A DNA stretch of 64,000 nucleotides, taken from the IMG/VR virus record IMGVR_UViG_3300020055_000013. One strand, written 5' to 3'. The stretch comes from an uncultured virus (IMG/VR IMGVR_UViG_3300020055_000013) (taxonomy: Duplodnaviria > Heunggongvirae > Uroviricota > Caudoviricetes). How positions within the stretch are numbered: the stretch's first letter is position 1; each line of letters begins with the position of its first letter. A program made the position numbers and the translations under genes. Of this stretch, positions 12,499 through 53,896 are shown piece after piece. Under the pieces are notes generated by a model. The model was not told the origin of the DNA and made no database searches. It was given only the letters and a program-made list of their open reading frames with translations.

Positions 12499-12513
12499 AT
12501 TATACACTAAATT
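12499..12513 (-). promoter_or_regulatory. Candidate late promoter AATTTAGTGTATAAT
   Basis: 14 nt identical to 49294-49307; intergenic, upstream of RBS. Confidence 0.6.
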
Positions 12514-29900: not shown

Positions 29901-32900
29901 AGCAGATGTGTATCCAGATCCAACAATTTCGTTTTGAGTATAAAGCTCTAATAGTTGGTTGTTATTAGAATTGTAACTTAAAACAACAGATAGGGGGTAT
30001 TGGTAAACATGATATGGTGCTGGGTCTGTGATTGTAATAGTGTTGCCTTGACTATCTAAAGCGAAGCCCTCAAGATATCCGTTGTTATATCTAAGACCGT
30101 ACTCTAGTTGCTCTCCAGCGTCTTGTTTTTGAAATATGACTCCAGAATTCCAAAGGTTATAATTAACCCCACTTACGTTTTCATCTGGAGAAAACCTTGT
30201 AAAGATAGCAAATCCACTTGCAGACGGGACGTTGCCGAAATTAAGATAACCGTCAACGCCAGAAACACGAACGGCTTTGTCGAAAGAGTCTAAGATTTGA
30301 CCATACAAAGGATCGTTTGGATATTCATATGTCCAGTCAATAGTGTTGTAAGGTGTGTTTGAATTGCTAGCAAAAAGGGATGGAGACTTAAATCTCATGC
30401 CAACATTATGAACAATTGATTGAGAGAGATCGCCATGAGAAAAAACACCGCTGAGAGACCCACCATTGTTTGAAAAAACTTTATCATTGTAAACATTATG
30501 GAAATCTATATATCCAAGCGGGAATGGCTGGTCTAATTGCGGGAAGGAGAAAGCGAATCCAAAAGCGGTATTATCAAATGGGCCAGCAGAAACCAAGCCA
30601 GAAGACCCCCTCCACCTTCTAGAATAATTAGTTTTGAGAGTAGTGTCTTTTGAAGAGTACGCTTGCGGGATGTTTTCTATTAAAGATAAATGATTATTAC
30701 TATTAACCATCCTGTCTTTGGGTTTTTTCTTAGATGGAGAAAGCAAAGAAATTCTACGATTAATTTCTTTTGACTTAAAACCAGTGATCTCAAGTGGCAA
30801 AGATCCTGCTGGCTTATGCTTTACTATAAGGTCGGCCTTGGCGATAGAAGCTCCAGAAGGTATTGGATAAATATCTAGATATAAAGACTCAAAGTAACTA
30901 CTCATAGAATAGTCTTTGGAGAAGCCTAAATCCACTTTATCTTTATAAATTTTTAGCGGTATATCGTAAGTCTTAAATTCTGTAGAGTCTACAAGTATAT
31001 CATTTGAAATATAGTAATGATCTCCACCAGCATTAGAAGCTATATTGCTAGAGTAATAGGCTGATTTATCTGATATGCTTTCTGAAGATAATGAAAGCTC
31101 ATTAACTGTATGAAAACCAGAGACTTGAGGCATGTTGCCGTAGCCAGCAGAAGAGTTTTGCAAGAATCCACTCTTCTGAGAAGTAATAAACAGAACTTGA
31201 TCATCGCTGTAACCAACCACATCTATTGGGAAGCTGTCTGTACCCGGAGCTTTTTTGGCCCTAATTCTTAAAAATATTTCTTCAACAACAAAGAAAGAAT
31301 CATCTATTGTGACTTTTTCTATAACGGAAGTGTTTAGAGAATTGGAATATTTATTACCAAAGCTGAAAGCCCCTCCTCTAAGAGCTTTGATAAAGAAGGG
31401 TTCTTCGTGTTGATATAACAGTTGAAGTTTACCGGAAGGCTCAACACTTGGAACTATGCTATCTAGCGATATGTGTCCAAGTACGTATCTGTTGATTAAC
31501 CTGTCTCTAAGAGTGTTATCTGATGTAGAATTTTCATCGTGGTTAGTAAACGTGTTGCCTTCTAAGTCTGGAGATGTTTTCCAAACGCTTTGTATGCCAG
31601 TGGGATATATGTCATTGTTATAACTTGGGCCAAGGACTAGTTTAGGCTGTATGATTCTTTCAACGAAAGTTCCGTGATTCACAACTTCTGAATACATAGG
31701 AACAAATGAATCTCTCAATAAACCCTCAGTATCGCTTAAGCCTCTGTTTGCTAATTCTATCGCAGATATTCTTAGAGCATTGGTGGGTCTTAAATAATAA
31801 TCATTTGTTTGAGTAGATATTGGAGAGCCGTCAATAGCTAAATGATCATTTCTAGAAGAGGGGACAAACCTATCATCTAAATCACAATGGTCTAAAAATC
31901 CTTTGTTAAACTCTTGAGTAAAGCTCTTGTAAAAACAATCCCCGTCTACCTCTAAGCTTAATTTATATCCGCTTGCTTCATTTAGTATTGGGTACTTTGG
32001 ATGCCAAGTGTTAAGTGCGGCATAATTAATTTCTGGTTCAGAAACATATGTAACAAAGTGGTACTGATTCTTTTGATCGTAATCTTGTTCACCACGTATA
32101 GCAAAGTCTTTATATTTTACAATAAGATTTCCAGATGGATCTTCAAGCGTGATATTAGAAACTTTGTATTCTGGTGGTATATCTGTTTCATAGTTAAATA
32201 ACGGAGAAGAAGCCCTTAAGAAGAAGAAGCTTTCTATAGGAGAAACAGTGGGAGGAGAAACCTCGCAAACATATTTGAATTTTCCTTCTGTGTAAATAGA
32301 AGACGGCGTGATGTATGAATCGTCATCGTCAGATATGATATATCCTTCTCTTGCGTTTTGCGTTATATTTCCAACAAAAACACCCTCGTTGATTCTTGAG
32401 TAAAGATTCTCAGTATCCATGTCGTGGCTGATAAAAGAAATATTATTGTTTGTTGTAATAAGATCTCTAATTGGGTACATCTTTTGTACTGGCTGATAAT
32501 TCTCAATACTGTTAATCTTAGAAAAGAAACCGTGAAGTTTTTCGAAGTATTTAGCTTTAACTCGGCTGTCGTGAGAATTAAAGTTTGCCTTAAGATTATT
32601 AACAGGTATGCTTGCCCTAGCAATAAATCGAGAATTTCTCAGTCTTTTCTTTTGAGTTGCCAAGCTCCAGCTGATTTTCGACTCCTGTATATAGGCAGCA
32701 GATGAATTACTGGAAGTTTGTGGAGAATAAATGTCAATGGGGAACTGGTTGTTAGCCTGCCTGTAATCAATACTGAGCGCATCTTTACCATAATCAATGT
32801 AATCTTGAGAATTGGTATTAAATAATGTGTCTGGCAAATCGTCTGCGGATCTCTTGATTAATTCCTTTGCGTAATGAAGCTTAACGGCACTATTGCCACG

Positions 32901-33159: not shown

Positions 33160-36100
33160 TTAAGATAAAGAGGTTGAAGATCTACTTAATCTGCCACCTT
33201 CGCCAACCCTGTAGTTTCCAATTTCTTGAGCAACTGCGCTTAACATTTCATTTCTTACAAATTGATTTATAGAGTTTAGTATTCCGCCGTCTACCATGTT
33301 TACATTAACATCAGCTGGAGCCACAGCAAGCTGAACATCTAAATTATTAAGATTTGCAACATTCTCTGAAAGTCTTTGGGCGAAAATGTTTAGTGACTCT
33401 TGGAAAGAAGACATTGCATTAGTGTCAAGTTCTATAGACGGACCATCTTGTGAAGATGGATTAATTGTTTCTTGTTGTGTTCTCTTGGTATTGTTGTTTA
33501 TGCCATCCAATTTATTTGAAACCTGACTCAGAACCTGAATTATCGGAGAAAAATCAATTCTTGGTTGAGGTGGTGTATTTTGTGAAGAATATCCACCGCT
33601 AGACATTCCTCCACCCTGAAGATATTTCACGGCCCCGCCTCTAGACATATTCTGAACCAAGGGTCCACCGTTATTTATACTCTGTAATAATGGTAGGTTA
33701 TTTTGAGCAGCTTGTCTGTTTATTACAAACTCTCCGGGAGTTAACATGGCAGGCACTGTGTCTGTACCCCTTGGTTGATAAGGAACAAGCATTCCTTTGT
33801 TGGCATAAATAGGACCACCCTTACTATATCTACGCGCTGTATTATTAAGTAAATCGTTCGCTATATTCACTTGGCTATTTGGATCTTGTAAAGCTTCTGA
33901 GCCTTTTCTAATTCTTCTGTTACGTTCCATTTCTTCGACCTTGCTGCCGCTAGAGAATGAATCTCTGACATCAGAAATTAAACCAGCTGAAGATTGACCC
34001 AATTGCATAGTAGCTCTTCCGGGGTTTAGTAAATTTTCTCCCACGTTTGTAGCATAACCTTGATTGACCTGCCTATTGCTTGTCTCGTTGTATCTAGAAA
34101 GAGCCGCTTCTGGATTAATAGCCAATGAAACAGCTTCTCCCGCTAAATCTGTTGCAACTAAGCCGCCATAAGCAGCAAGTCCTCCAGCGACCGAAGAAGT
34201 TGCACCAAAAGCGGGCGCTGCATTCTTTGCTCCTAGTGCCACATCTCCAGCTGTTCCAACAGCTGAACCATACCCCTGAGTGTAGCCAGCTTTATCTAAA
34301 AACGAGCCAACATTTGCCATCGAATATGCTGTAAGTCCGGTTTTAAGTCCTTGAGATGCTGCCTGTTTTACGCTAGATATAGCCGGAGCCGTTGCAACAC
34401 CCGTTGCTAATGCACCCGCAACACCAACACCAAGTTGAGCAATATTAGTTCCATATTTACCTGCTACTCCAGTCTCCTCACCAGTAGATCCCAAAGCCCC
34501 AGCCAATATAGGAGATAATATCTTGCTTGTTCCTTTGGCTAAATATGTAGGACTAATAATACCGCCAGAAGAAGAGTATTCAACATTTTTACCACTATTA
34601 ATAGATTCAAGTAAAGAACGATTGCTTCTTGTAGCTTTAGCATTTACAACAAACTCTCCCGGAGTTAGCATAGCTGGTACAGTATCTGTTCCTCTTGGTT
34701 GATAATTCACATACTGGCCTTTAGAAGCATAGACAATACCTCCAGAAGACCTAGTGGCAACTTTCACTGCTTCTTGGGCTTGATTTGTTATTATTTGTGC
34801 ATTTCTAACGTCAATTGTAGCCTGTTGCACCCCATTCAACGTAGCGTTCTGAAGCTGTGCAGATAAATCTCTACCTTCTGCTTGTAGCTGTTGAATTTCT
34901 GGAGTTGTGTCAGCCCTTGATCTACCAAACTGTCTAGCCATATTAGTGCTTAATCCAGCCATAATACCACCCATAGTTACAACGGATTGCTGTAACCCGG
35001 ATATGTCTTGTCCAAGATAACTAGTAACTCCAGCCTGACGCATACTGTCAAGGTTTTGAGAAGCTCTACCATAGTCTGACGCACCAAACTGTCTCATTAA
35101 TTGAATGTTTCCAGTTGCGGCTGCGGCAGTAGCTCCTTCAGCTGCCATTTGGTTGAAAAATTCTTCTCTATTGCCAGATAGTAGTGCGTCTATTGCCTTT
35201 TTCTCTGCCGCATTTTTTGCTTGAGCAATAGCTATTTCATCTTTTTTGGCTTGTATTAAGTCTCTAGTTACTTGTATTTGACTATCAGCAGCTTGTCTTA
35301 AAGCGTTTTCTCTAGACCTAAAATCTTCAGAAGAAACTTCTTCTTGAGCGCGTTGACGTTCTGCGTCTGTTACTTGTCGCCCATTAGTATCAATGCCGGT
35401 TGCTGCTATTTGTTTAGTCCTACCAATGGTGGCTTGCCGGTTTCTAATTTGTTGATTTCGTAGTTTTAATTCATCGGCAGATCCGGTTCTAAGGGGCTGA
35501 AGCCCAGCATCTCTCGCCGCAACATTTGCCTGCTCAACAATAAAACCTCTACGCTTTTGTGGAGTTAGTGCGGGGCCACCAAAGTCTGCAATATTTTTAC
35601 TTGCCTCTAAAGAAGCGGCAATCATAGCTGACTGAGCTTGATAAAGTTTATTCTGAGCAGAAAGCTGCTTATCAATAGCTGATGTTAATCCTTGCAAACT
35701 TTGAATTAAAGGTTCTACCGCTCCTTCAAGCGCTGGGCCTATTGCTTTTTTACCCTCTTCTGATAAAATCTTTTGAAGTGGCGCAAAGTTTCCCTTTATA
35801 ATTTCTGCCATATCTCCCGGATTTAATTCTGCATTAGCAATTACGTTTTTGATTTGATCTACAATCCCCGGATCGGTTCCATCGGGGATAAAATTAGCCA
35901 CCTCTTCCGCAAGAATCTTTCGTTGCTCTTGTGGGCTACCTGATTGCCTGTTAAGCATACCAGACAGTCTGTTTTTAGTATTTTCTGTCGCAGAAGCAAA
36001 TCCAGCCTGAGCAGAGCTAAATGCTGTAGCAACATTCTTAAAATTTTGGACTTGCTTAGTAGAAGCTCCAAACTTTTCTAGTGAAGGTATTACTCTATCT

Positions 36101-39100
36101 AAAGCGCCCTTGAATGTGTCTGAATCAATATTAGCAGCAGCCTCAGTCATGGCTGCATTAATAATATCAATACTATTCTCTAGCTGAGTCGAAGCAGAAG
36201 ATGGATCACGGCCAAGATTATTAATTTTTACTGCGGCAGCTTGGGCAGCTCCAGAAACATTATTAAAACCTAAATTGATTCCCCTGAGCCTAGCTTGCGT
36301 TTTATTAAACTCTGCTTGCAAATTAACAAAAGCTTGTTGCAGGCCACTCGCCGTCTCTCGGTCAAGATTACCAATATTCTCTTCTCCAAAGGTGTTTCTA
36401 AATTGTTGAAAATCACCACCTGACTCAATAACATTCCGCATTGTGGCGTTAATTACAGGCTGTACCGACTGAGACAATTCTGATCTTTGTTGGTTTGTAG
36501 ATCGCCTTGTTGCTTCGTTCTCTGCAAAAATTCTTTCGTTACGAGTAGCAGTACTCTCTATAGCCCCAAAAGAAAGAGTACTGAAAACATCTCTTGCTAT
36601 ACTAGTACCAGCGTTTACATCGGCCAAATTTCCTCTGTTTTCTTTAATGGCCTTCTTGCCTCTAGCTTCCTGTTCTGCAAATTCATTAAAAGCGGGTTGA
36701 GCGGAAGCTAATACCTCTGCAAGCCCAACGGTTCCAGCAGCAAAGGATTCTAACGCTTTAGATGTGTTTTTAGTTGAAGTTTCTAAAGCTTTTGAAAATG
36801 CTATAGCGCCAGCAGAAGCTTCAGACATTGCCACTCGACTTGATGATGTGTTTGAACCTAATCCTACGGCTAAATTTTCTGCTCCACTCTCAGTAGTTAT
36901 ACTGCCAATAATTGCGCCTAATCCACCACCTAAAGCAGCGCCAATAGCTGTGCCAATGCCGGGAGCAATTGCAGTACCAATTAACGCACCAAAGGTAGCA
37001 CCAGTACCACCCATAGCCATTCTCGATGTATTTCTATTTTCTAAAAAGGCTTGCTCTCTAGTAGTAGAGCCAGCAGTGCTAACATCGCCCTCAGAAATGG
37101 ACTTTTTTAATTTTTCCGTTTGATCATACAGATTAGTAAAGCCTTTATTTAAAAGTGCTATAGCACCAACAGTTGCACCTATTGGTCCCAATAATTTGGT
37201 CAAACCGGAAGTTGCTCTACCTAAACCAATTGATAAGTTTGCAGCAGATTTTGGCAGAATAGCAGAAGCTCCACGACGAACAGATCTACCAGCAATGGCT
37301 GATATCTTGCCACCACCACCGCCAGCCAGTTGCGCAAGATCGACAGCTTTAACGTTTGCCCCAAATAATGAAATGGCAGCATTTGCAGCAAGAAGAGAAC
37401 TTGAAAGACCTTGTAAAGTTTCAATAGTTGCAGCGGTTGCTTTCTGTGTGGCTGTTGAATTTTCATCTACCACCGGAGTTAAATAACTAAGCGCCGCAGA
37501 TAATGAGAATAAAGCTTCGTTAGCAGCCCCTATTCCAGTGAAACCGCCTCCCCTGCTTGTGCCACCACCAGCAAAACGTTGAACAGCACCACCGCTAGCA
37601 AATCGACCAACTATACCACCAGTTGCGTATTTGCCAGTTTTATTTATCTTGCTAAGTTTTCCATAGCCTATTTGTCGTGCTTTCTCTTTTGGTATTATTA
37701 ACTCACCCGGAGTCACTAAAGCGTCTACGGGGTTATCAACATTTCCACCGCCAGAGTAGCCCCTCATTAATTTCTTTACATTTTCAGCACCAAGGCTTTC
37801 TACACTGGGCTTTTGAATTACAAAATCTCCGTCGTTTAGTACTGTTTTTACAGTATCGCCATTTCCAACGCCGGGAACAATTCCACCTCTATTGAATTTT
37901 TGAAATTTAACACCGCTAAGATCACCCTTATTAATATCACGAACGAGTTTATCTGCAATATCTGAAAAGTTACTTGTACTAGCGGTTCGCTTTGCGTCAG
38001 CCTTTACTAAAGAATCTATACCTTCTGATCCACTTGTGAATAGCCTTTTAAGCCCCGGCCTAGCGTCAGATATAGAAGATGCAGGAAAGTCAAAAACAGC
38101 TTGTCCACCTTCAAGTTGCGCACCAGTCAAAGCCTGAATCAAGCCTTCGAAAATATATCCACTCATTGTTGACAAAACTTGTTTATCTGTCGAAAGCTTT
38201 GAAGCGGCTTTAGAGATATTGCCTTGATTTACATTGATAGGCCCAACGTCAGGGAAAACAGAAGACACAGCAGAAGAAGCTGATTCTACTCCCTGCTCTA
38301 TCGCCTTCCTTGTTGAATTGTTTACAGCTGTTGCGATTTCCCCATTCTGAAGATCGTCTTTACCCGGAAAAAAGCCAACAATAGATCCAGAAAGAGAAAT
38401 ATTCTTGGGGGCAGTTGTATTCTTTGCCTGAGAAATTCTTTTCTTTGTTTCTGGACTAGAAAAATCTTTTTCAAAGTTTGATGCAGCGACTTGATCGCTT
38501 TGTTTTGTGGACTTTTTAGCTTGAGAAATAGAAGATCTAGCTTGAGAACTGCTAGTCATCTTGGTAATAAAAGTATTAGACTTTTTTCTTCCAAGCAGTT
38601 TTGCTTTATCTTTAGCTGAAGATTGAAAGAAAAATTCATCATCTGATAGTTCTGGCCCAAAATCATATCCAAGTTTAGATAAGGCTTGTTTGTTTGTTAT
38701 CTGTACATTTTTTTCTGAAATGCTATAGTTTCTAGGGTCGCCCTGTTCTGGGGCAAGAAAAAATCCACCAATCTTACCCGGATCAATATTAATCTTACCG
38801 CCCTTAGCATAACCCTGAGCGTCATCCTTGCCACTATTCATAGCCGCCAAATTGCCAACACCAATACGATCAACGGCAGTTTTTTTCATAACAAATTCAC
38901 CCGGACTTAACATGGCTTTAACTTTATCTCCCTTGCCATAACCGGGAACTAAACCTCCAGTAGCAAAAGCGTGAACTCTGCCGCCGTCATTAAATTTCTT
39001 TCCACCTATAACGGAGCCAATTCCAGAGGCTAAACCTTTGGCAATTTTTATGCCAGCAAAAGCGGTGAGTAATGGCAATATTGGCTTTAGTGTATCTGCT

Positions 39101-40326
39101 AATTTAATCAAAGAACTAGCAAGAGTAAGTACCGTATCTGCCATAACTTGAAAGGCTGTACTATCAGAAATGCCTCTTACTAGCGCCAAAAATTCTTCTT
39201 TCACTTTGGTTATCTGAACAGCTAATGCTGCCTGAGCCTTTGCAGCGTCCGTAGTAAGACTAGACTGACCCTTTTGTGCGACGGCTAACGCTTTTTGGGC
39301 AACTGTGAACTGCTGTAACAGTGGCAAGACTTTGCCGATTTGCCTAAAACCACCAAGCTCTTCGGCAATTTGAACAAAAGTTAAGTCACCTTCGCCAAGA
39401 CCGGCAAGAGCAGAACTAAGCCTCTTGATTGCCTCATAAGGTCCAACGAATTTACCTTGAAGATCTACAAGTTCTACGCCAAACTGTTTAAGGTATTCAA
39501 TTGTTTCGGGACGTTGAATTCTAGTAAAAATAGTACGCAGACCAGTAGCAATACTCTCGGCTGACTCTCTAGTAGTCGATCTAACGCTAGTAAATAGCGC
39601 TATTAGCTCATTAAGATCACCGCCAGCAGACTTAAAAACACCACCAGTTCTACGGATTACAGAAACTAAGTCACCGGCCTCAACAGCGAATTGCCCAGCA
39701 ACAGCATTTAAAGAACCAAGTTGAGCCTCTAATGCTCCAGCACCTTGCCCAAACTGATTTAAAATCGCAACAGCTCCTTCAGCTGTTTGTGAGATATTAT
39801 CAAATGTTGGAGCTAATTCAGTTCTAGCCAACGTGGCCAAAGCGGTTTGCGTATCTCTTGCTGAAAGTCCGGTTTGAGCTAGTATGCGAGAAACGCTAAG
39901 TAAAGAGCTAGATGATACACCTAGCCCAGTTGACAAATTAGTAATTTCTTTCGTAAGACTTCCCAAGTTAGCAATGGTGGTATTAGTAACCTGAGAGATT
40001 TTAATTAACTCTCGCTCAAAAGCGATAGATTCTTTAATAGCTGCACCAAGAGTGTTAGTAAATAAACCAACCGCCCTTGTGGCAATAGCCATTGCGGAAA
40101 AACGTCTAACAGACGCAGCAAAAGATTTCCCAATTTTACTCGCGGCAGTAGAAGCTTTATCGGAAGCTTGGGTGATATTGTTTATGTCTTTAACTGCTTG
40201 AGAAGAATTTTGTAGATTCACGTTGACATTAACGCCATTCAACTGTTGTTGAATTTGGTTAACGACTTGTGAAACATTCTTTGGAGCTTTTAGAGAAAGC
40301 TCTGCTGTTAATACAAATTTGGCCAT
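33160..40326 (-). CDS. Tail tape measure protein
   Basis: TP901-type core (FERELIKISQV...LAQTG...LNAVAGQFAVEAGDL...TTRESAESIATGLRTIFTRI), Ala/Gly-rich hydrophobic segments, repeated DTVPAMLTPGEFV modules. Confidence 0.92.
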   Translation of the reverse strand: MAKFVLTAELSLKAPKNVSQVVNQIQQQLNGVNVNVNLQNSSQAVKDINNITQASDKASTAASKIGKSFAASVRRFSAMAIATRAVGLFTNTLGAAIKESIAFERELIKISQVTNTTIANLGSLTKEITNLSTGLGVSSSSLLSVSRILAQTGLSARDTQTALATLARTELAPTFDNISQTAEGAVAILNQFGQGAGALEAQLGSLNAVAGQFAVEAGDLVSVIRRTGGVFKSAGGDLNELIALFTSVRSTTRESAESIATGLRTIFTRIQRPETIEYLKQFGVELVDLQGKFVGPYEAIKRLSSALAGLGEGDLTFVQIAEELGGFRQIGKVLPLLQQFTVAQKALAVAQKGQSSLTTDAAKAQAALAVQITKVKEEFLALVRGISDSTAFQVMADTVLTLASSLIKLADTLKPILPLLTAFAGIKIAKGLASGIGSVIGGKKFNDGGRVHAFATGGLVPGYGKGDKVKAMLSPGEFVMKKTAVDRIGVGNLAAMNSGKDDAQGYAKGGKINIDPGKIGGFFLAPEQGDPRNYSISEKNVQITNKQALSKLGYDFGPELSDDEFFFQSSAKDKAKLLGRKKSNTFITKMTSSSQARSSISQAKKSTKQSDQVAASNFEKDFSSPETKKRISQAKNTTAPKNISLSGSIVGFFPGKDDLQNGEIATAVNNSTRKAIEQGVESASSAVSSVFPDVGPINVNQGNISKAASKLSTDKQVLSTMSGYIFEGLIQALTGAQLEGGQAVFDFPASSISDARPGLKRLFTSGSEGIDSLVKADAKRTASTSNFSDIADKLVRDINKGDLSGVKFQKFNRGGIVPGVGNGDTVKTVLNDGDFVIQKPSVESLGAENVKKLMRGYSGGGNVDNPVDALVTPGELIIPKEKARQIGYGKLSKINKTGKYATGGIVGRFASGGAVQRFAGGGTSRGGGFTGIGAANEALFSLSAALSYLTPVVDENSTATQKATAATIETLQGLSSSLLAANAAISLFGANVKAVDLAQLAGGGGGKISAIAGRSVRRGASAILPKSAANLSIGLGRATSGLTKLLGPIGATVGAIALLNKGFTNLYDQTEKLKKSISEGDVSTAGSTTREQAFLENRNTSRMAMGGTGATFGALIGTAIAPGIGTAIGAALGGGLGAIIGSITTESGAENLAVGLGSNTSSSRVAMSEASAGAIAFSKALETSTKNTSKALESFAAGTVGLAEVLASAQPAFNEFAEQEARGKKAIKENRGNLADVNAGTSIARDVFSTLSFGAIESTATRNERIFAENEATRRSTNQQRSELSQSVQPVINATMRNVIESGGDFQQFRNTFGEENIGNLDRETASGLQQAFVNLQAEFNKTQARLRGINLGFNNVSGAAQAAAVKINNLGRDPSSASTQLENSIDIINAAMTEAAANIDSDTFKGALDRVIPSLEKFGASTKQVQNFKNVATAFSSAQAGFASATENTKNRLSGMLNRQSGSPQEQRKILAEEVANFIPDGTDPGIVDQIKNVIANAELNPGDMAEIIKGNFAPLQKILSEEGKKAIGPALEGAVEPLIQSLQGLTSAIDKQLSAQNKLYQAQSAMIAASLEASKNIADFGGPALTPQKRRGFIVEQANVAARDAGLQPLRTGSADELKLRNQQIRNRQATIGRTKQIAATGIDTNGRQVTDAERQRAQEEVSSEDFRSRENALRQAADSQIQVTRDLIQAKKDEIAIAQAKNAAEKKAIDALLSGNREEFFNQMAAEGATAAAATGNIQLMRQFGASDYGRASQNLDSMRQAGVTSYLGQDISGLQQSVVTMGGIMAGLSTNMARQFGRSRADTTPEIQQLQAEGRDLSAQLQNATLNGVQQATIDVRNAQIITNQAQEAVKVATRSSGGIVYASKGQYVNYQPRGTDTVPAMLTPGEFVVNAKATRSNRSLLESINSGKNVEYSSSGGIISPTYLAKGTSKILSPILAGALGSTGEETGVAGKYGTNIAQLGVGVAGALATGVATAPAISSVKQAASQGLKTGLTAYSMANVGSFLDKAGYTQGYGSAVGTAGDVALGAKNAAPAFGATSSVAGGLAAYGGLVATDLAGEAVSLAINPEAALSRYNETSNRQVNQGYATNVGENLLNPGRATMQLGQSSAGLISDVRDSFSSGSKVEEMERNRRIRKGSEALQDPNSQVNIANDLLNNTARRYSKGGPIYANKGMLVPYQPRGTDTVPAMLTPGEFVINRQAAQNNLPLLQSINNGGPLVQNMSRGGAVKYLQGGGMSSGGYSSQNTPPQPRIDFSPIIQVLSQVSNKLDGINNNTKRTQQETINPSSQDGPSIELDTNAMSSFQESLNIFAQRLSENVANLNNLDVQLAVAPADVNVNMVDGGILNSINQFVRNEMLSAVAQEIGNYRVGEGGRLSRSSTSLS

Positions 40327-40344: not shown

Positions 40345-41232
40345 TCAAGAAGCCGCTACTTCTTCAGTTTTCTTTTTTGTGGTTTTTCTTCTAGTCTTAG
40401 GCTTAGACTGGATTGAGTTTTTGTCTTGATTTTCATCTACGGCTAAATCATTTTCATAATCAGCTTGCAATAAAAGCTGTCCATTGTCAGACAATAGATT
40501 ACCGTCACGGTCTATTCTATGTCCATCTTTATTGATAAGCCAGCCTAAATCGTTAACTATAGTGCCATCTATGTCAACAGTATTACCAGAGTTATCAATT
40601 AAAGCTAAATCAGAATTAACTAAATTGAACTTGAGTAAAAACTGATTTTCTGGCAAGTTTTCTTCATAAGAAGGATCTAGTCCGTATAACATTTCTCCCA
40701 TAGCTGTAGCTGCTGCAAAGGCTAATTCTTCTTCGGTGCTATTTTCGTACTCGTCTAAATTTGCAAAAACCTTGTCGCCACTTACATAAAAAGTAGAATT
40801 CGCTACTAGGAAGTTAAACTTTTTATTGTCAGAAAGTCCCTCGGCAGTATTGGCTTCAAGTGATATTTTTTCTGATATTAAATCTCGCAATCTGATCCTT
40901 AAAGCTCTTAATAAAATAGCTTTTTCTTTTCCTTCAGATACTTTTAACTTACCATTTGCTCCTGAACCAAGAGCTAATTCTTTTTCTAGGGTGTGAATAT
41001 GTTCAGTAAGCTCACTTTGTCTTAAGTCTTTTTCGTTGTCCCATATGCCATTCTTATACATAAAATCAAGAAGGGTTAACTTGGTAAATAAGCCATCTCT
41101 AACAGCTTCAGTCCAGACCTTAACCCCAAGATGATTAGCCTTTGTAAGTAAAGATGACGTAGGCTTTTTTATTAAGATCTCAACTTCTTCTCCATTTTCT
41201 TTCTTAACGGTAATTTTTTTAGTTTTTTCCAT
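40345..41232 (-). CDS. Putative tail assembly chaperone (G-like), paralog of 41576-42625
   Basis: Immediately upstream of TMP; coiled-coil; C-terminal 7-residue DxxG repeats; aligns with 349-aa ORF. Confidence 0.55.
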   Translation of the reverse strand: MEKTKKITVKKENGEEVEILIKKPTSSLLTKANHLGVKVWTEAVRDGLFTKLTLLDFMYKNGIWDNEKDLRQSELTEHIHTLEKELALGSGANGKLKVSEGKEKAILLRALRIRLRDLISEKISLEANTAEGLSDNKKFNFLVANSTFYVSGDKVFANLDEYENSTEEELAFAAATAMGEMLYGLDPSYEENLPENQFLLKFNLVNSDLALIDNSGNTVDIDGTIVNDLGWLINKDGHRIDRDGNLLSDNGQLLLQADYENDLAVDENQDKNSIQSKPKTRRKTTKKKTEEVAAS

Positions 41233-41548
41233 GATTGTTATCCTTGTTAAAAGTGAAGTGAACTATATTTGAACGACGCTTGATCTCCAAAGAATCTATC
41301 TTATGATGCGTCATTCTGATTTGATCGTTTCCCCTGTCTAGTATATCTGATCTTAGTTTTTGAAATAAGTCAAAGTAATAGTCCCCGTTTTCTGCACCGT
41401 CTTCCCAGAGAAAGCCGAAAAATTGCTCAACGGAACTTAACGAACCTATCATTGTTGTCTGTATTTTTTTTGAAATAAACGATTTTAGTTCAGATATAGA
41501 AATTTGAGACTCTTGGGCGTCTCTTTCGTTTTGATAATTTGAATACAT
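41219..41548 (-). CDS. Hypothetical protein
   Basis: 109 aa, AGGAGG RBS, between the chaperone-like paralogs. Confidence 0.6.
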   Translation of the reverse strand: MYSNYQNERDAQESQISISELKSFISKKIQTTMIGSLSSVEQFFGFLWEDGAENGDYYFDLFQKLRSDILDRGNDQIRMTHHKIDSLEIKRRSNIVHFTFNKDNNHGKN

Positions 41549-41575
41549 TTAATCCTCCTGTCATTAGTCCATTTT

Positions 41576-42625
41576 TTATTTGTACGCTTTTTTAATGGCA
41601 TTCATTTTTTTTATTTCATCTTGACCTTTTATATCATTAAAATCTGAAAATGATTTAACACCGCCAGACTTAAATTGATTCTCTCTATCTTGAATTATTT
41701 TTTTAGCTGATTCGTCGTTTGAATTATTAATATCGTCTACAGAAATATTTTCTTGTGGGAAAATAATTCTAGTTGAAGCATTTTTTATTTTACTAGACCT
41801 TATGTGTGAATCTATGTTATTTTTAGAATTAGAAGTTTTCTCTTGTCTATTTAGATGTATCAAAAATCCATCCATAACATAGTGATTTTCCCAACATTCT
41901 TTTGGTGGTGGCTCATGACTATTTCTTAATTGATCAAAAGTGTAAGACCAAGACATGATATTTTTTTGATTAATAGTAAGATCTTCGTCTTCTTTGTTAC
42001 AAAATAATTTTAAATTTGATTTACAAGAAGTCAGCCATAGAGTCAACCAAGGGTCTTTGATTGCTATAAATCTTAACGTATATTCATCCAGAAAGCTAGA
42101 GTAGTATATAGACTTAACTCGATCTAATGCACAAGGTTTGATTCTTTTGTTCTTATAGAAAGAGCTGTGCTTTAAAACAAAATTTATCCTTGTGTCATCA
42201 GCTAGAAATTCACACGTTTGATCATAAAATGAGTTCTTTGTATCATTAAGCTTTTTGATTTCTTTTTCGATGAATTTAACTTTTAAAATTCCTTCATTAA
42301 CTTTCTTCTTATTACTTCTGTTTTTATAGATATCAAACTTTACATCTTCTACAAGTTTTTGTTTTTCAATTAATAATGAATCAAGATCTTTAGACCACAA
42401 ATCTCTATTAATCATCCATTCGTTGATTTCCTTTAGTGTCATTATTCCTTCATTTACAAACTTTTCGTAACATTCTTTGTATATAAAGTAGGCTTCTGAT
42501 ACAATGGAATATTTTGGTGGCTTTATTACAAAATTATTTTTACAAACACTTCCAGATCTTAATTGAGAAAATAGAAACTCCCGCAAATGCATGTCTAGTT
42601 GTTCTGCCTCTACGGGAGCTTCCAT
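41576..42625 (-). CDS. Putative tail assembly chaperone (GT-like), paralog of 40345-41232 with extra C-terminal domain
   Basis: IKPP...EGIMT...W...QTCEFLADDTRINFVLKHSSFY vs IKKP...DGLFT...W...NTAEGLSDNKKFNFLVANSTFY; between tube and TMP. Confidence 0.5.
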   Translation of the reverse strand: MEAPVEAEQLDMHLREFLFSQLRSGSVCKNNFVIKPPKYSIVSEAYFIYKECYEKFVNEGIMTLKEINEWMINRDLWSKDLDSLLIEKQKLVEDVKFDIYKNRSNKKKVNEGILKVKFIEKEIKKLNDTKNSFYDQTCEFLADDTRINFVLKHSSFYKNKRIKPCALDRVKSIYYSSFLDEYTLRFIAIKDPWLTLWLTSCKSNLKLFCNKEDEDLTINQKNIMSWSYTFDQLRNSHEPPPKECWENHYVMDGFLIHLNRQEKTSNSKNNIDSHIRSSKIKNASTRIIFPQENISVDDINNSNDESAKKIIQDRENQFKSGGVKSFSDFNDIKGQDEIKKMNAIKKAYK

Positions 42626-43601
42626 AAGTCCTTGTCCTTATACCTTGAAATCAATAATAAGACGATAAATTATTGTAACCAACACCGGTCGAAGATGCAG
42701 TTCTTGGGCCACCATCTGCTCCACCATTCTCTTCTGAGTATGATGTTACACTAACACTAGCCGAGTATGGACCAATTTTCGAATTCCAACCACCGCCAAC
42801 AGAATAATTCCCTTCGGAAGCGGGATCAATATAACTAGTTGATTCAACGCTAATTTCAGCCGGATACTGAGGAACAGTATCGTAAGCAGCAACTTGACCT
42901 AAGCACAATATCGGTTGGATATTCAAACTTAGATTTGCGCTTAAAGAAATAGTTGGACACTGATTACGGGATTTAAGTAAAGCAGTGTTGGGCGGGGTGC
43001 CATACTCGGAGACGACAGAAGAGTAATTTAGATATGGATCACCTCTCCTTAGTGGGGTATAAGTGCTGCCTTGTGATAGGGTCAGTTCTGTGCCATCGCC
43101 AGCATATTGCACGGGGGTCCCGTTTATTATTGTGCTAACACCTGTAGAAACAACTCCTATGCTTTCAACCATAGCTCCTTCGGCATCGATTGAATAACTA
43201 TAAGAAGAAAGTGAACCACTCATCGAAAAAGAGTACGTATTTTCAGTATCAACAGAAAGAGTCACGCCTCCATAATTCGAAAAAGTAGCCAAGGTGAAGT
43301 TGTTATTCAACTGCGCATTCCACCAAAGCGTATTTACCTGTGGATTACCAGATCCCGGTGTATATCTCTCTAAAGTCATTTCGTAAAGGGGAGCGCCCTG
43401 AGTACTGCCAAATGTGCCTGTGCTGCCCATCTGCAATAAAGCCTCAAAGCTTGTATTTCCTTCCATGCTGCAAGCAGTAAAGCCAGAATCGGCACTACCC
43501 TTATCTCCCGTCATTTCCGCTTTAAATCCAGCTAATGTTATAACACCCATAATATCTCCAATTTGTATAAGGTTTTACGTTGTAGTAAAGAAAAGGACTT
43601 A
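42625..43601 (-). promoter_or_regulatory. Paired inverted repeats flanking the tail tube gene (long-range RNA pairing)
   Basis: TAAGTCCTT 42625-42633 / AAGGACTTA 43593-43601 and CCTTATAC 42636-42643 / GTATAAGG 43565-43572 are exact reverse complements in nested order. Confidence 0.65.
42651..43550 (-). CDS. Probable major tail tube protein
   Basis: 299 aa Ser/Gly/Thr-rich with two internally similar halves (..EALLQMG..P.YEMTLE / ..QPILCLG..P.EISVE); between neck genes and chaperones/TMP; own promoter and GGAGA RBS. Confidence 0.6.
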   Translation of the reverse strand: MGVITLAGFKAEMTGDKGSADSGFTACSMEGNTSFEALLQMGSTGTFGSTQGAPLYEMTLERYTPGSGNPQVNTLWWNAQLNNNFTLATFSNYGGVTLSVDTENTYSFSMSGSLSSYSYSIDAEGAMVESIGVVSTGVSTIINGTPVQYAGDGTELTLSQGSTYTPLRRGDPYLNYSSVVSEYGTPPNTALLKSRNQCPTISLSANLSLNIQPILCLGQVAAYDTVPQYPAEISVESTSYIDPASEGNYSVGGGWNSKIGPYSASVSVTSYSEENGGADGGPRTASSTGVGYNNLSSYY

Positions 43602-43605
43602 ATAT

Positions 43606-43614
43606 TTAATACAC
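43606..43614 (-). promoter_or_regulatory. Candidate late promoter GTGTATTAA
   Basis: Same core motif as 12499, 49293, 53886; intergenic after stop. Confidence 0.5.
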
Positions 43615-43618
43615 GAAA

Positions 43619-44563
43619 CTAGTGTTCTACTATTAATTCAGCAGACATTCTGACTACCCCGCCGTATAAACTATTTGTCAAAAAACTAATGTCGCTAGTT
43701 TTAGTGTTTAACATTCTCATGTCAGCTAATAAATAATTAGATATTAAATTGTCGTAATTTTTAGCGTTTGGTCTTAAATATCCATTGTAGTCTATTGGAA
43801 AATCGTTATTTTCAGATATTTTTTTGCTACTAAACATACTGACGCTGTGACCATTAAGAAATGAAATAATATCAATCATTTTGTTTTTAGTTAGTTCATC
43901 TTCAGCAACGCAGTAAAATATAATGTCTGTATAAACAAAATCATTAAAACCACCCATGCAAAACGGCTTAAATGATCTGGTTGGGGCGAGTTCTATAGCT
44001 ATTAAAGGTAATTGCACTTTTAGCTCTGGGGGCGTAGAAATGGAAACATCTTGAGGAGATATGTTCATAGATTTTTTCTGTATTTCCCTGAACCACGGTA
44101 ATGAGCTAGCATAAATTACGTTAATATACTTAAAGCTATATTCCGCTTGAACTTTACTAGACGTTGGAATAGGTGAATCAAAAACAATTCTGCCATTAAA
44201 ATGATCAATATTATGAGCAAAAGGGCCGGTGGTGTCTGATGGATAAAAATTATCATCCACATAAACGCCAGAGACTCCGGGTTTACTCGGATTAACCCCC
44301 ACCAAGGGATTAGGATTATGAGATATACCACTCTGCCAAACCCAGTTGCTTCTATATGCTTCCCAAGCGGAACCTTCTGAGAAATTACTATTAGAAGAAA
44401 TAGAAAGCAGTGAATAGTCTTGACCGTTTGGGGATGTTTCTCCAAGGCTGGTATTGAAATAATTACCTTTATTTAGAAGATACCAATCAAGATATTCAAT
44501 AACAGAGTCCTGTATCTCGTTAGTAATTCCGGGGGAAAATATATTATCAATTTCGTATTTCAT
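43619..44563 (-). CDS. Putative tail completion/terminator-like protein
   Basis: Position before tube gene; LPLIAIE...DIIFYCVAED..TKNKMIDII resembles terminator-type fold. Confidence 0.45.
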   Translation of the reverse strand: MKYEIDNIFSPGITNEIQDSVIEYLDWYLLNKGNYFNTSLGETSPNGQDYSLLSISSNSNFSEGSAWEAYRSNWVWQSGISHNPNPLVGVNPSKPGVSGVYVDDNFYPSDTTGPFAHNIDHFNGRIVFDSPIPTSSKVQAEYSFKYINVIYASSLPWFREIQKKSMNISPQDVSISTPPELKVQLPLIAIELAPTRSFKPFCMGGFNDFVYTDIIFYCVAEDELTKNKMIDIISFLNGHSVSMFSSKKISENNDFPIDYNGYLRPNAKNYDNLISNYLLADMRMLNTKTSDISFLTNSLYGGVVRMSAELIVEH

Positions 44564-44568
44564 AGTAA

Positions 44569-45195
44569 TTATGATAAAATGTTGGAAATAGATGTTGACA
44601 AAGCAGAAGTAAACTGTGGGCTAGTTAAAGCTCTAGTAACAAAATTGTCATCCATTGTACCAGAAAATTCTGAAGGAACCTTAAAATATCCACCACTAGA
44701 CATATAACCTAAATTAGACCGCCCTCTGCCTGAAGATGGTTCATATTGATAACCTGAAACTATTACTGAATCCCCCAAAGATATTAACCAATTCAACCAG
44801 TGTAAGTCTCCACCCCTGTATTTAACATGTCCTTGGTCTAAGCTTAGTAAGTTAGTAAATGTAGATGGTTGAAAATAAATAGTGAGCGGTATGTTTGATA
44901 AAGACGAATTGATATTTTTAATTTTAACTTCAACAGAACTTGATACGGCAGAGGCAATAGCAGAAGCGGCAGAAGATTCTGAGCCGGGATATAAACCAAA
45001 TTCACCAGATAAATTTCCAGATTTTAGAGCAAGCATTTCGGGCTGCGAAGAAATGCTATCTGAAGCCAAATTCTTGCAAGATGATTCTATCCTTTGTTTA
45101 TTATTCCTAATGGTACGAGAAAAATCTTCTGCTATGGCTTTATTGATCTTGCTTGATATTTCATTGATAGTTTGCGTTAATTTGATATAAGTCAT
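44569..45195 (-). CDS. Putative neck/tail completion protein
   Basis: Synteny; WL.WL and NFVTRAL C-terminal pattern; likely start ATG 45195. Confidence 0.45.
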   Translation of the reverse strand: MTYIKLTQTINEISSKINKAIAEDFSRTIRNNKQRIESSCKNLASDSISSQPEMLALKSGNLSGEFGLYPGSESSAASAIASAVSSSVEVKIKNINSSLSNIPLTIYFQPSTFTNLLSLDQGHVKYRGGDLHWLNWLISLGDSVIVSGYQYEPSSGRGRSNLGYMSSGGYFKVPSEFSGTMDDNFVTRALTSPQFTSALSTSISNILS

Positions 45196-48208: not shown

Positions 48209-48730
48209 TTAATATCTAAAATATCCACCTCTAAGGTCGTTGTCTGAATAAGAGCGTGTTACAAAGTCGCTACCGGGACTATATGGCCCAAGTATTGCGT
48301 GTCCAGCCAAGCTATTGCCAGCACGATAATCTAAGAGCATTTGGTCATATTTGGAACATAAATCTTTGTATAAGATTGTTAGTGAACTGGAAACACCGCG
48401 AAGATCTATAGAAGATGGGCCGTCTTTTATAGAAATAGCATTACCAGACTCGGACCTAACCTCACTGCCAAGAATAATACAAGAGCATTTAAGACTAACC
48501 AGCGCTATAAAATCATCGTCTTTGGTTGTGTCATCAGTTGGATCTGGTGACAGTTCGCACTGTTCTACGTTAATTGTGTAAAGCTGCTTTAAGTCTGTCT
48601 CGGTTGTGAGTAACTGTGCTGCTACTAATATTGTAGTCTCTAAGCGTTTAGCTGAGTATTTATAATTTGCTGGATCGACATCACTAATTAAGTGGCGAAC
48701 CATTGTGGAAATTTGGCCTTGCCAAGACAT
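48209..48730 (-). CDS. Putative head-tail adaptor/connector
   Basis: MVRHLISD.D...YKYS..RL helical pattern; SIKDGPSSIDL; neck context. Confidence 0.5.
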   Translation of the reverse strand: MSWQGQISTMVRHLISDVDPANYKYSAKRLETTILVAAQLLTTETDLKQLYTINVEQCELSPDPTDDTTKDDDFIALVSLKCSCIILGSEVRSESGNAISIKDGPSSIDLRGVSSSLTILYKDLCSKYDQMLLDYRAGNSLAGHAILGPYSPGSDFVTRSYSDNDLRGGYFRY

Positions 48731-48737
48731 ATATCAC

Positions 48738-49043
48738 CTATAGGTTGCAGTGTACTTGAAAACTGTAAATATCAGTATAGTAAGTGCCTGCTGGTAAGGC
48801 GACTTTGGCCTGAAGCTTGTAATGTCCAGCCTCGTCCAAATCTCCAGCTAGTGTGTTGTAATAAACTTTACCATCCGTACCATCAGTGTATAACGTGCCA
48901 ACCTTGTTGACAACTTCATCGTCTGGCTTTTTAAACATCATTGTAATACTGGAAGCAGTTGAAATATCAACAACAACTCCATCATCTTTAATTGTAACGA
49001 GGAATTTAGTGCCAACATCATTTACATGTATTTCGCTAGCCAT
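48738..49043 (-). CDS. BppU N-terminal-like Ig-fold structural protein
   Basis: D.GTKFLVTIKDDG..VDIS..S.ITMMFKKPD...DGKVYY....DLDEAG.YKLQ..V. Confidence 0.65.
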   Translation of the reverse strand: MASEIHVNDVGTKFLVTIKDDGVVVDISTASSITMMFKKPDDEVVNKVGTLYTDGTDGKVYYNTLAGDLDEAGHYKLQAKVALPAGTYYTDIYSFQVHCNL

Positions 49044-49044
49044 G

Positions 49045-49107
49045 TTACCTCTTTAGTGTTATGTCCGAAGTTTGTTTGATGGAAAGCGTAATCTCTAAGG
49101 TTTTCAT
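49045..49107 (-). CDS. Possible 20-aa micropeptide MKTLEITLSIKQTSDITLKR
   Basis: ATGA overlap with upstream ORF and stop 1 nt before next ATG; fills the gap exactly. Confidence 0.4.
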   Translation of the reverse strand: MKTLEITLSIKQTSDITLKR

Positions 49108-49277
49108 AGTATAACCATTGGATCTTTCTCTATAGTCATATCTATTGTAATTATACTACATATGTTTTGTGTTTCGGGGCTTTGCTGCTGAATATATAAA
49201 ATAAGCTCCTCGTCGTGGCCGTTGTAAAAAATAGACTGCGACGTAGAGAGCGGCAGGAAGCTCCAGAAATTGAACAT
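49104..49277 (-). CDS. Small hypothetical protein (57 aa)
   Basis: MFNFWSFLPLSTSQSIFYNGHDEELILYIQQ...; GAGGT RBS and candidate promoter upstream; below ORF-track cutoff. Confidence 0.6.
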   Translation of the reverse strand: MFNFWSFLPLSTSQSIFYNGHDEELILYIQQQSPETQNICSIITIDMTIEKDPMVIL

Positions 49278-49292: not shown

Positions 49293-49307
49293 GTTATACA
49301 CTAAATT
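49293..49307 (-). promoter_or_regulatory. Candidate late promoter AATTTAGTGTATAAC
   Basis: 14 nt identical to 12500-12513. Confidence 0.6.
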
Positions 49308-53885: not shown

Positions 53886-53896
53886 AATATACACTA
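53886..53896 (-). promoter_or_regulatory. Candidate late promoter TAGTGTATATT
   Basis: Same core motif, overlapping upstream stop, ~35 nt before ATG with GGAGA RBS. Confidence 0.45.

What the first reader, a model, noticed from the sequence alone, without database searches (positions are those of the whole stretch)
42625..43614. Long-range RNA clamp around the tail tube gene that hides the next gene's RBS
Minus-strand mRNA from the candidate promoter: 5'-UAAGUCCUU-uuc-UUUAC uacaac GUAAA-a-CCUUAUAC-...GGAGA..AUG[tube]UGA uuucaag-GUAUAAGG-ac-AAGGACUUA-UG. The 9-nt and 8-nt blocks pair perfectly across ~920 nt in nested order, with a small hairpin making a three-way junction. The tube RBS stays free while the AAGGA RBS and the A of the AUG of the GT-like chaperone gene are sequestered. 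Inference: an undescribed cis-regulatory device that gives high tube expression and low downstream chaperone expression (a substitute for the frameshift ratio), and/or an RNase III-type stem that excises and stabilises the tube message; longer transcripts would carry it too.
Basis: partly seen in the sequence, partly recalled or inferred. Interest (0 to 1): 0.8.

Follow-up and report, generated by a model that had tools for sequence, protein, structure and literature searches.

The report
Possible RNA stem enclosing tail-tube gene
Two short stretches before and after a probable phage tail-tube gene are exact complements and could close its message into a loop that hides the next gene's start, but no diverged relatives exist to test whether this is selected or a coincidence.

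Summary
On the minus strand, UAAGUCCUU (43601-43593) and CCUUAUAC (43572-43565) are exact complements of AAGGACUUA (42633-42625) and GUAUAAGG (42643-42636). They are nested, 921 nt apart, with a 5-bp hairpin between the 5' blocks.

The pairing is rarer than chance but not decisively so:
- 13 of 5000 (duplex energy) and 2 of 2000 (cofold gain) shuffles reach it.
- It is the best of 1521 leader x trailer pairs from this window by cofold gain.
- Ten other loci in the 64 kb pair with the 3' arm equally well by duplex energy.

A motif shared by three minus-strand intergenic regions would put a transcript start inside the outer arm. Transcripts of up to 1.6 kb from there keep the outer helix (P about 0.95). 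Two longer contexts lose it.

"Tube RBS stays free" is not supported, and "GT-like chaperone" is untested.

Covariation could not be tested. The protein family has 4 representatives among 1.84 billion, and the only relative with DNA is near-identical.

Verdict: a real complementarity of unproven function, about 0.4 that it is a working stem. If real, it is a new variant of known 5'-3' mRNA pairings.

The parts
43607..43618 (-). Shared intergenic motif TTTCGTGTATTA (pattern TTTMGTGTATWA), a candidate promoter with a -10-like TATTAA at 43611-43606
   Evidence: There are 3 exact matches in the window, all on the minus strand and all within 1 nt of a stop codon in an intergenic region (12511, 43618, 49305). 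Shuffles expect 0.05, and 0 of 100 shuffles reach 3. A fourth related copy lies at 53896-53888. The pattern was derived after seeing these sites. Reading it as a promoter is inference.
43593..43601 (-). Outer 5' arm UAAGUCCUU
   Evidence: I3. It is the only exact 9-mer complement of the 3' arm region in the whole 64 kb.
43574..43589 (-). Small hairpin UUUAC-uacaac-GUAAA (5 bp), the third arm of the three-way junction
   Evidence: Predicted in the cofold and in the MFE of the long context. In the alternative register, 43592-43586 instead pairs with 42634-42640.
43565..43572 (-). Inner 5' arm CCUUAUAC
   Evidence: I16. Pair probability is about 0.5 in all transcripts that keep the outer helix.
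43555..43559 (-). GGAGA Shine-Dalgarno-like motif of the tube ORF, 4 nt before its AUG at 43550
   Evidence: It is predicted mostly paired with 42690-42696 (P about 0.47) in the naked RNA.
42651..43550 (-). ORF of 299 aa, a probable tail tube protein
   Evidence: It lies four ORFs upstream of the tape measure gene 33160-40326 (PF10145, E 1.7e-22). ESM Atlas look-alikes carry tail-tube families PF18906, PF26461 and PF06199 (TM 0.61-0.71). It has no Pfam, PHROG, NCBIfam or PDB sequence match, and the AF2 model is unusable (pLDDT 33.5).
42636..42643 (-). Inner 3' arm GUAUAAGG, which covers most of the first AAGGA motif (42639-42635)
   Evidence: I16. It starts 7 nt after the tube stop codon (42653-42651).
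42625..42633 (-). Outer 3' arm AAGGACUUA, which covers the second AAGGA motif and the A of the next AUG
   Evidence: P(unpaired) averages 0.05 for this AAGGA and 0.08 for the AUG.
41576..42625 (-). Downstream ORF of 349 aa whose start region is masked; function unknown
   Evidence: It has no family hit, only itself in the 5.8-billion protein search, and unnamed viral Atlas clusters (TM up to 0.89). It has the lowest GC of the 40 ORFs (0.285).
43694..43707 (-). Competing long-range helix partner; pairs with 42748-42761
   Evidence: I4 (14 nt, 93% complementary). In the MFE of 42400-43800 this helix forms and the clamp does not. The two cross, so nested folding cannot hold both. Enforcing the clamp costs 6.8 kcal/mol.

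Best explanation
The leader of the probable tail-tube gene and the 25-nt spacer after its stop codon form a long-range RNA stem. The stem has 9 outer pairs plus either 8 inner pairs with a small hairpin or a contiguous 7-position extension (six pairs, one mismatch). It closes the tube cistron into a loop of about 920 nt.

The stem buries both AAGGA ribosome-binding motifs and the AUG of the next ORF. That ORF would therefore be translated poorly on its own, and mainly when a ribosome terminating at the tube UGA, 7 nt before the inner arm, melts the stem. This would be translational attenuation or coupling.

If transcripts start at about 43598-43600, as the shared intergenic motif suggests, the stem would also leave the message with a base-paired 5' end, which should slow its decay.

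Shown: the complementarity, its rarity against controls, and its predicted formation in transcripts of 1-1.6 kb. Inferred: the promoter, the transcript start, any effect on translation or stability, and that the stem forms in vivo at all.
For: - The 9+8 complementarity is exact and nested.
- 13 of 5000 and 2 of 2000 shuffles reach it.
- It is the best of 39 cognate leader/trailer pairs, with 5 of 1521 pairs at or below its duplex energy. It is the single best of 1521 by cofold gain, about 5 sd from the mean.
- The 5' arm is the only exact 9-mer complement of the spacer in 64 kb.
- With 23 genes cut the same way, the tube gene has 19.1 expected 5'-3' flank pairs; the next best have 11.1, 10.3 and 9.95.
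- Outer-helix probability is 0.88-0.96 for transcripts of 0.98-1.6 kb.
- Downstream SD and AUG P(unpaired) is 0.05-0.12.
- The 68-nt intergenic region is one of the few long ones in the structural module and carries a motif shared with two other intergenic regions (3 matches against 0.05 expected). This would put the transcript start inside the outer arm.
- Weak hint: all 4 metatranscriptome contigs laid on 41400-44700 fall within 42762-43660, the tube gene and its leader.
- Known precedents exist for 5'-3' pairing that masks an SD: icaR (PMC3868564, abstract read) and hok tac/fbi (PMC9841398, passages read).
Against: - There is no comparative support. The arms are invariant in the one related locus, which is near-identical and cut inside the 3' arm.
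- By plain duplex energy, 10 other loci in the window pair with the 3' arm as well or better.
- In 3 of 22 control genes, end-to-end pairing of about 10 bp arises anyway.
- The complementarity is pyrimidine-rich CCUU against purine-rich AAGG, the easiest kind to get by chance next to any RBS.
- The clamp vanishes in the two longest contexts folded: P 0.01 for 42400-43800 and 0 for 41500-43601.
- One RNA-library contig bridges the leader into the upstream gene (43500-43660), so read-through transcripts probably exist.
- The tube RBS itself is predicted paired, so differential expression does not follow from the fold.
- Translating ribosomes would disturb a 920-nt loop.
- This finding was picked from a very large scan, so a 1-in-1000 event per gene is not surprising in itself.
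Confidence: 0.38

Rival explanations
1. Coincidence. A U/C-rich leader happens to complement a duplicated purine-rich ribosome-binding region, and the RNA does not use the pairing. The 68-nt intergenic region exists only to hold a promoter and the tube RBS.
For: - Ten other loci in the window reach the same duplex energy with the 3' arm.
- There are 25 inverted pairs of 8-18 nt in the local 1251 nt.
- 3 of 22 control genes show about 10 expected end-to-end pairs.
- The clamp is lost in the two longest contexts folded.
- There is no covariation evidence.
- The finding was selected from a scan of very many windows (task statement).
Against: - It is the single best of 1521 real leader/trailer pairs by cofold gain.
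- 2 of 2000 shuffles reach it.
- Two exact blocks lie in nested order in the same 68 nt, where the window-wide rate of exact 8-mer complements is about 11 per 64 kb.
- The arms end on the predicted transcript start on one side and the next AUG on the other.
Confidence: 0.4
2. A double-strand-specific processing site. The stem, about 18 bp in the MFE register with one mismatch and one bulge, is cut by a host RNase III-type enzyme. This would excise a monocistronic tube message whose paired ends stabilise it, and would separate it from the downstream cistrons.
For: - The MFE register gives 9 bp, a mismatch, then 9 bp with a one-base bulge. From recalled knowledge, this is near the two helical turns such enzymes need.
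- RNA-library contigs cover only the tube gene and its leader in the 3.3 kb laid (weak).
- In icaR, 5'-3' pairing creates an RNase III substrate (PMC3868564, abstract).
Against: - The helix is short, AU-rich and interrupted.
- No RNA ends could be read, because the runs were kept as contigs.
- One RNA contig runs through the 5' arm to 43660.
- The host and its RNases are unknown.
- No Rfam family matches.
Confidence: 0.12
3. A DNA-level feature. The inverted repeats would be the edges of an exchangeable tube-gene cassette, or paired binding sites for a DNA-binding protein, rather than an RNA structure.
For: Between the window and L001, 15 of 16 differences over 3917 nt lie inside the tube ORF, between the arms, and the flanks are identical. 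The tube ORF has higher GC than both neighbours (0.434 against 0.285 and 0.346).
Against: - The differences are scattered single substitutions, 13 nonsynonymous codons against 1 synonymous. This looks like selection on the protein, not an imported block.
- GC3 is ordinary (0.333).
- The 9-mer and 8-mer are not repeated as a site elsewhere in intergenic DNA: 3 matches each in the window, within chance.
- Inverted repeats of 9 and 8 bp are short for a recombination site.
Confidence: 0.05

Closest known systems
icaR mRNA 5'-UTR/3'-UTR pairing in Staphylococcus aureus (PMC3868564; abstract and outline read)
   Same: The pairing spans a whole coding region, masks a Shine-Dalgarno sequence with a C/U-rich anti-SD stretch, and creates a double-stranded region that could be an RNase III substrate.
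   Different: In icaR the anti-SD lies in the 3' UTR and masks the mRNA's own SD. Here the anti-SD lies in the leader and masks the SD of the next cistron in an operon. There is no experimental evidence here.
hok mRNA tac/fbi fold-back of plasmid R1 (PMC9841398; passages read)
   Same: A long-distance 5'-3' stem closes the message, stabilises it and keeps an SD sequestered until the 3' side is removed or opened.
   Different: hok is a small monocistronic toxin message with a well-conserved, covarying structure and an antisense partner. Here the element sits inside a long phage structural operon and has no known relatives.
Long-range control of a downstream cistron in RNA phages: the MS2 coat-replicase coupling (recalled, no call) and distal RBS effects in Qbeta (PMC2978339; search listing only)
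   Same: A downstream start site is masked by pairing to a distant upstream sequence and opened by ribosomes translating the upstream cistron.
   Different: In those phages the upstream partner lies inside the translated coat gene. Here both arms lie outside the tube ORF, so only initiating or terminating ribosomes would touch them. This is a dsDNA phage mRNA, not a genome RNA.
ORF-centric mRNA structure in operons (PMC5318159; abstract read)
   Same: Each ORF of an operon mRNA tends to fold as its own structural unit. A stem closing exactly one cistron fits that picture.
   Different: That work describes a statistical, ORF-wide property, not a discrete flanking clamp.

Membership tests
Any curated RNA family (Rfam 15) | A covariance-model match at or near the gathering score | tested here: not met
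   cmscan of 42300-43900 on both strands with E up to 1 gave 2 matches, a snoRNA and a miRNA model. Both are far below gathering (22.5 against 55 bits, 21.1 against 120 bits) and neither lies on the arms.
5'-3' UTR pairing that masks an SD (icaR type) | Complementarity between the two ends of one cistron's message that includes an SD | tested here: met
   The arms flank ORF 42651-43550 and cover two AAGGA motifs and an AUG. The masked SD belongs to the next cistron, not to the enclosed one.
5'-3' UTR pairing that masks an SD (icaR type) | The pairing is conserved or covaries in relatives | tested here: inconclusive
   The only related DNA (L001) has 0 differences in the 68-nt leader and 0 in the 17 nt of spacer present. 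The contig ends inside the 3' arm. No diverged locus could be found.
5'-3' UTR pairing that masks an SD (icaR type) | The pairing lowers translation or creates a cleavage site, shown by mutation | not testable with these tools
   This needs reporter, toeprint or cleavage assays.
RNase III processing stem | About two turns (roughly 20 bp) of mostly uninterrupted dsRNA (criterion recalled, not from a call) | tested here: inconclusive
   The best register is 18 bp with one mismatch and one bulge, and is AU-rich. The nested register is 9+8 bp split by a 2-nt bulge and a hairpin.
RNase III processing stem | RNA ends at the stem in vivo | not testable with these tools
   The runs were kept only as contigs, which cannot show ends.
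Phage tail tube protein (PF18906 / PF06199 / PF26461) | A profile match to a tail-tube family | tested here: not met
   No Pfam hit even at E up to 5. No PHROG hit, no NCBIfam hit, and no PDB profile hit at E up to 10.
Phage tail tube protein (PF18906 / PF06199 / PF26461) | Tube-like fold and a position upstream of the tape measure gene | tested here: inconclusive
   The Atlas's own model aligns to clusters that carry tail-tube families at TM 0.61-0.71, and the feature score is 0.95-0.96. The gene lies four ORFs upstream of the PF10145 tape measure gene. My AF2 model was unusable (pLDDT 33.5).
   The ORF has no family hit, and two further ORFs separate it from the tape measure gene. The overlapping pair 41219-41548 / 40345-41232 sits next to the tape measure gene instead.

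The most novel reading that the evidence does not exclude
A dsDNA phage sets the ratio of its most abundant tail protein to the next gene product with a promoter-proximal 'closing clamp' rather than with a frameshift or a terminator. The first nucleotides of the tube transcript would pair with the spacer after the tube stop codon. One stem would then protect the 5' end, define a stable tube message (possibly by double-strand cleavage), and keep the downstream start closed except when terminating ribosomes open it. Such a discrete cistron-closing clamp has not, to my knowledge, been described for a phage structural operon. My two literature searches aimed at this found no such description, but they were narrow.
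Probability: 0.15. Interest if true: 0.65.

Novelty: new variant of a known kind. Interest (0 to 1): 0.4.

Why it matters
Long-tailed phages need hundreds of tube subunits for every few copies of neighbouring gene products. How that ratio is set within one long late transcript is understood for only a few model phages. A clamp that closes one cistron and masks the next start would be a compact, portable way to set such ratios. It would extend the few known bacterial 5'-3' mRNA pairings (icaR, hok) to phage operons.

If the pairing is chance, the case is a useful calibration. An exact 9+8 nested match around a gene arises at roughly 1 in 1000 genes here. A large scan will therefore turn up many such matches without function.

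Tried and rejected
**Searches for relatives to test covariation**
- tblastn of the tube protein against 50,697 phage records found no match.
- Four scans of viral contigs found nothing: the tube protein, alignments A1 and A3, and the downstream 349-aa protein.
- A genome-contig scan with A3 found nothing.
- The metagenome-contig scan gave L001 (near-identical, cut inside the 3' arm) and L002. L002 is a GC-rich contig with a 47-residue match that runs off its end, and was not usable.
- The genome search 'relatives' and 'own' are not available for this virus record.
- The nearest held record, G001 (13.5 kb), does not contain the region.

**Protein searches**
- There were 3 hits in the 5.8-billion set and 4 in the 1.84-billion representative set. 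I dropped one of these, P0005, as a repetitive sequence that aligns poorly.
- The 349-aa protein found only itself.

**Structure**
- Both AF2 jobs gave unusable models (pLDDT 33.5 and 38.8), so no fold search was run.

**Reads**
- The four runs laid are contigs only. No contig covers either 3' arm, and only one (X14, 43500-43660) covers the 5' arms, with no difference there. The parts without cover say nothing.

**Ideas considered and dropped**
- The arms as copies of a dispersed repeat: each block occurs only 3 times in the window, within chance.
- A sigma-70 consensus promoter in the leader: none found.
- A diversity-generating retroelement as the source of the tube variation: the substitutions are not adenine-specific and are spread over 660 nt.

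**Literature**
- The searches returned nothing relevant.
Full report
**What is there**

The window is a virus record from salt-marsh metagenomes. Its GC content is 37.7% and it has about 40 ORFs, most without any family. A long minus-strand structural module contains a tape measure gene at 33160-40326 (PF10145, E 1.7e-22).

Four ORFs upstream of it lies ORF 42651-43550 (299 aa). It has a 68-nt intergenic region before it and a 25-nt spacer after it.

Reading the minus strand, the leader carries three elements:
- UAAGUCCUU (43601-43593).
- A 5-bp hairpin UUUAC/GUAAA (43589-43574).
- CCUUAUAC (43572-43565).

GGAGA then follows 4 nt before the AUG. After the UGA come uuucaag, GUAUAAGG (42643-42636), ac, AAGGACUUA (42633-42625) and UG.

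Both blocks are exact complements in nested order, 921 nt apart (I3 and I16). The outer helix ends on the A of the next AUG.

A second register therefore exists, a contiguous 16-bp helix with one mismatch (I3). In the ensemble the nested and contiguous registers are near-equal, at about 0.5 and 0.4-0.48, and both rest on the same outer 9 bp.

**Is it more than chance?**

The nulls give different answers.

- Dinucleotide shuffles of the two segments reach the duplex energy (-20.2 kcal/mol) in 13 of 5000 trials. They reach the cofold gain (-17.9) in 2 of 2000 trials.
- I also used real sequence as the null, pairing every 68-nt leader with every 31-nt trailer of the window's genes. Here 5 of 1521 pairs reach the duplex energy, and the tube pair is the best of 39 cognate pairs.
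- By cofold gain the tube pair is the single best of the 1521 (mean -4.5, sd 2.65). The next cognate pair scores -10.5.
- The 5' arm is the only exact 9-mer complement of the spacer in 64 kb. Exact 8-mer complements occur at 14 positions, 3 of them in this leader.
- I cut 23 genes identically (51-nt leader, ORF, 31-nt trailer) and folded each. The tube gene has 19.1 expected 5'-3' flank pairs. The next best have 11.1, 10.3 and 9.95.

Against this:
- Plain duplex energy finds 10 other loci in the window that pair with the 3' arm at -20.2 or better.
- Exact 8-10-nt inverted matches are frequent locally, with 25 inverted pairs in 1251 nt.
- The chemistry is CCUU against AAGG next to a ribosome-binding site, which is the cheapest complementarity to get by accident.

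My estimate is about 0.001-0.016 per gene. Across about 40 genes that gives 0.03-0.5 per window. This is unusual, but not enough on its own for a finding picked from a very large scan.

**Context that bears on it**

The leader begins with TTTCGTGTATTA. The pattern TTTMGTGTATWA has 3 exact matches in the window, against 0.05 expected, and 0 of 100 shuffles reach 3. All three are on the minus strand and within 1 nt of a stop codon in an intergenic region (12511, 43618, 49305). A fourth related copy lies at 53896-53888. I derived the pattern from these sites, so the count overstates its significance, but the placement is independent of the derivation.

The motif contains a -10-like hexamer (TATAAT, TATTAA, TATAAC). 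The simple sigma-70 scan finds nothing in this leader.

If the motif is a promoter, transcripts would start at about 43598-43600, inside the outer arm. This is inference. Transcripts folded from 43601, 43600 or 43599 down to 42620, and from 43601 down to 42500, 42400 or 42000, all keep the outer helix. Most of its pairs have probability 0.94-1.0, and the end pairs fall as low as 0.48.

The clamp is lost in two longer contexts:
- 42400-43800, where P is 0.01.
- 41500-43601, where P is 0.

In the first case the cause is identified. A 14-nt helix between 43707-43694 and 42748-42761 (I4) crosses the clamp, and nested folding cannot hold both. Enforcing the clamp costs 6.8 kcal/mol. A pseudoknotted coexistence is not excluded.

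**RBS accessibility**

In the 43601-42400 ensemble the downstream AAGGA motifs and the AUG have mean P(unpaired) of 0.12, 0.05 and 0.08.

The tube SD region is also mostly paired. P(unpaired) is 0.08-0.31 over the five bases scored (43558-43554, four SD bases plus the next U). It pairs with 42690-42696 near the end of the tube ORF. In the two-piece cofold, UUGGAG pairs with UUUCAA just after the stop codon. 'The tube RBS stays free' is therefore not what the folds say.

**Expression data**

Four runs were laid on 41400-44700. The two metatranscriptome runs gave 4 contigs, all within 42762-43660. None falls on the neighbouring genes.

One contig (43500-43660) runs through the 5' arms into the upstream gene. 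These are contigs of low depth, and DNA carry-over cannot be excluded. I take them only as a weak hint that the tube message is the most abundant species, and that some RNA reads through the leader.

**Relatives**

This is where the case stalls. The tube protein family is tiny:
- 3 hits among 5.8 billion clusters.
- 4 hits among 1.84 billion representatives. I set one of these, P0005, aside as repetitive.

No DNA could be fetched for the relatives at 28-55% identity. The one related locus, L001, is 96% identical in protein. It has 0 differences in the leader, and its contig ends inside the 3' arm.

**What the genes are**

The 299-aa ORF has no Pfam, PHROG, NCBIfam or PDB sequence match. My AF2 model is unusable.

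The ESM Atlas's own model aligns to clusters that carry tail-tube families (PF18906, PF26461, PF06199) at TM 0.61-0.71. Together with its position, this makes 'probable tail tube protein' reasonable.

The downstream 349-aa ORF has no name from any source. It has the lowest GC of the 40 ORFs.

It is not adjacent to the tape measure gene. The overlapping pair 41219-41548 / 40345-41232 is. Calling the 349-aa ORF a GT-like chaperone, and the clamp a substitute for the frameshift ratio, has no support so far.

**Most likely mechanism**

If the stem is real, I think it closes the tube cistron and masks the next start.

The inner 3' arm begins 7 nt after the tube stop codon. A terminating ribosome would unwind it and weaken the outer helix. 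This is established knowledge of ribosome footprints, applied here by inference. The 349-aa ORF would then be translated in proportion to tube translation, but at a lower level.

A paired 5' end would also slow 5'-end-dependent decay. A double-strand-specific cut is possible, since the helix has about 18 bp in the MFE register, but the helix is short and AU-rich.

I put about 0.38 on masking/coupling with stabilisation and 0.12 on a processing site as the main role. Chance gets 0.40 and a DNA-level feature 0.05.

**Comparison with known systems**

- The closest is the icaR 5'-3' UTR pairing. There an anti-SD in the 3' UTR masks the gene's own SD and makes an RNase III substrate (PMC3868564, abstract).
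- The hok tac/fbi fold-back closes and stabilises the full-length message (PMC9841398, passages).
- The RNA-phage coupling of a downstream start to upstream translation is similar. The MS2 case is recalled from memory, and Qbeta comes from the listing.
- ORF-centric folding of operon mRNAs (PMC5318159, abstract) gives a general frame.

The differences here are these:
- The anti-SD is in the leader.
- The masked SD belongs to the next cistron.
- Both arms lie outside the enclosed ORF.
- The setting is a dsDNA phage structural operon.

No Rfam family matches. If real, this is a new variant of a known kind.

**Verdict**

Interest is moderate (0.4).

Noticed in passing
window 42651-43550 compared with L001 3001-3900: The tube ORF is a variation hotspot. 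Of 16 differences between the window and L001 over 3917 aligned bases, 15 lie in this 900-nt ORF and 1 in the other 3,017 bases. They make 13 nonsynonymous codon changes against 1 synonymous, a rough dN/dS of about 4. All five differences of P0001 are among L001's. An RNA-library contig carries two of the same variants, at 43215 and 43219. This suggests diversifying selection on the tube protein, for example escape from a host defence that senses it (speculation).
   Followed up: partly
window 12500-12511, 43607-43618, 49294-49305, 53888-53896 (minus strand): A shared motif TTT[AC]GTGTAT[AT]A, or TAGTGTATA, lies directly after stop codons in four minus-strand intergenic regions. It is a candidate phage promoter with a -10-like hexamer. 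No -35-like element was sought.
   Followed up: partly
window 41219-41262: ORFs 41219-41548 (109 aa) and 40345-41232 (295 aa), next to the tape measure gene, overlap over GGAAAAAACTAAAAAAATT. The second frame is +1 relative to the first and is open for 10 codons before its ATG. This could be the tail-chaperone frameshift pair. However, the second ORF also has its own AAGGA and ATG, so independent initiation is equally possible.
   Followed up: partly
window 48707-49111: The small ORF 48738-49043 has the second-best leader/trailer complementarity of the 39 cognate pairs (duplex -19.5; cofold gain -10.5). The helix is irregular. The ORF lies downstream of the 263-nt intergenic region, which carries the shared motif and a possible ORF of about 39 codons.
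   Followed up: no
window 43694-43707 and 42748-42761: A second long-range complement (14 nt, 93%) links the 3' end of the upstream ORF to the 3' part of the tube ORF. It crosses the clamp in the folds.
   Followed up: partly
window 65-2760: The DNA polymerase appears to be split. An exonuclease-like ORF (65-745) and a polymerase ORF (1201-2760) are separated by an HNH endonuclease ORF (699-1211).
   Followed up: no
window 20916-33149: A 4077-aa ORF with no PHROG match lies directly downstream of the 2388-aa tape measure gene. Both are unusually large for tail-module genes.
   Followed up: no
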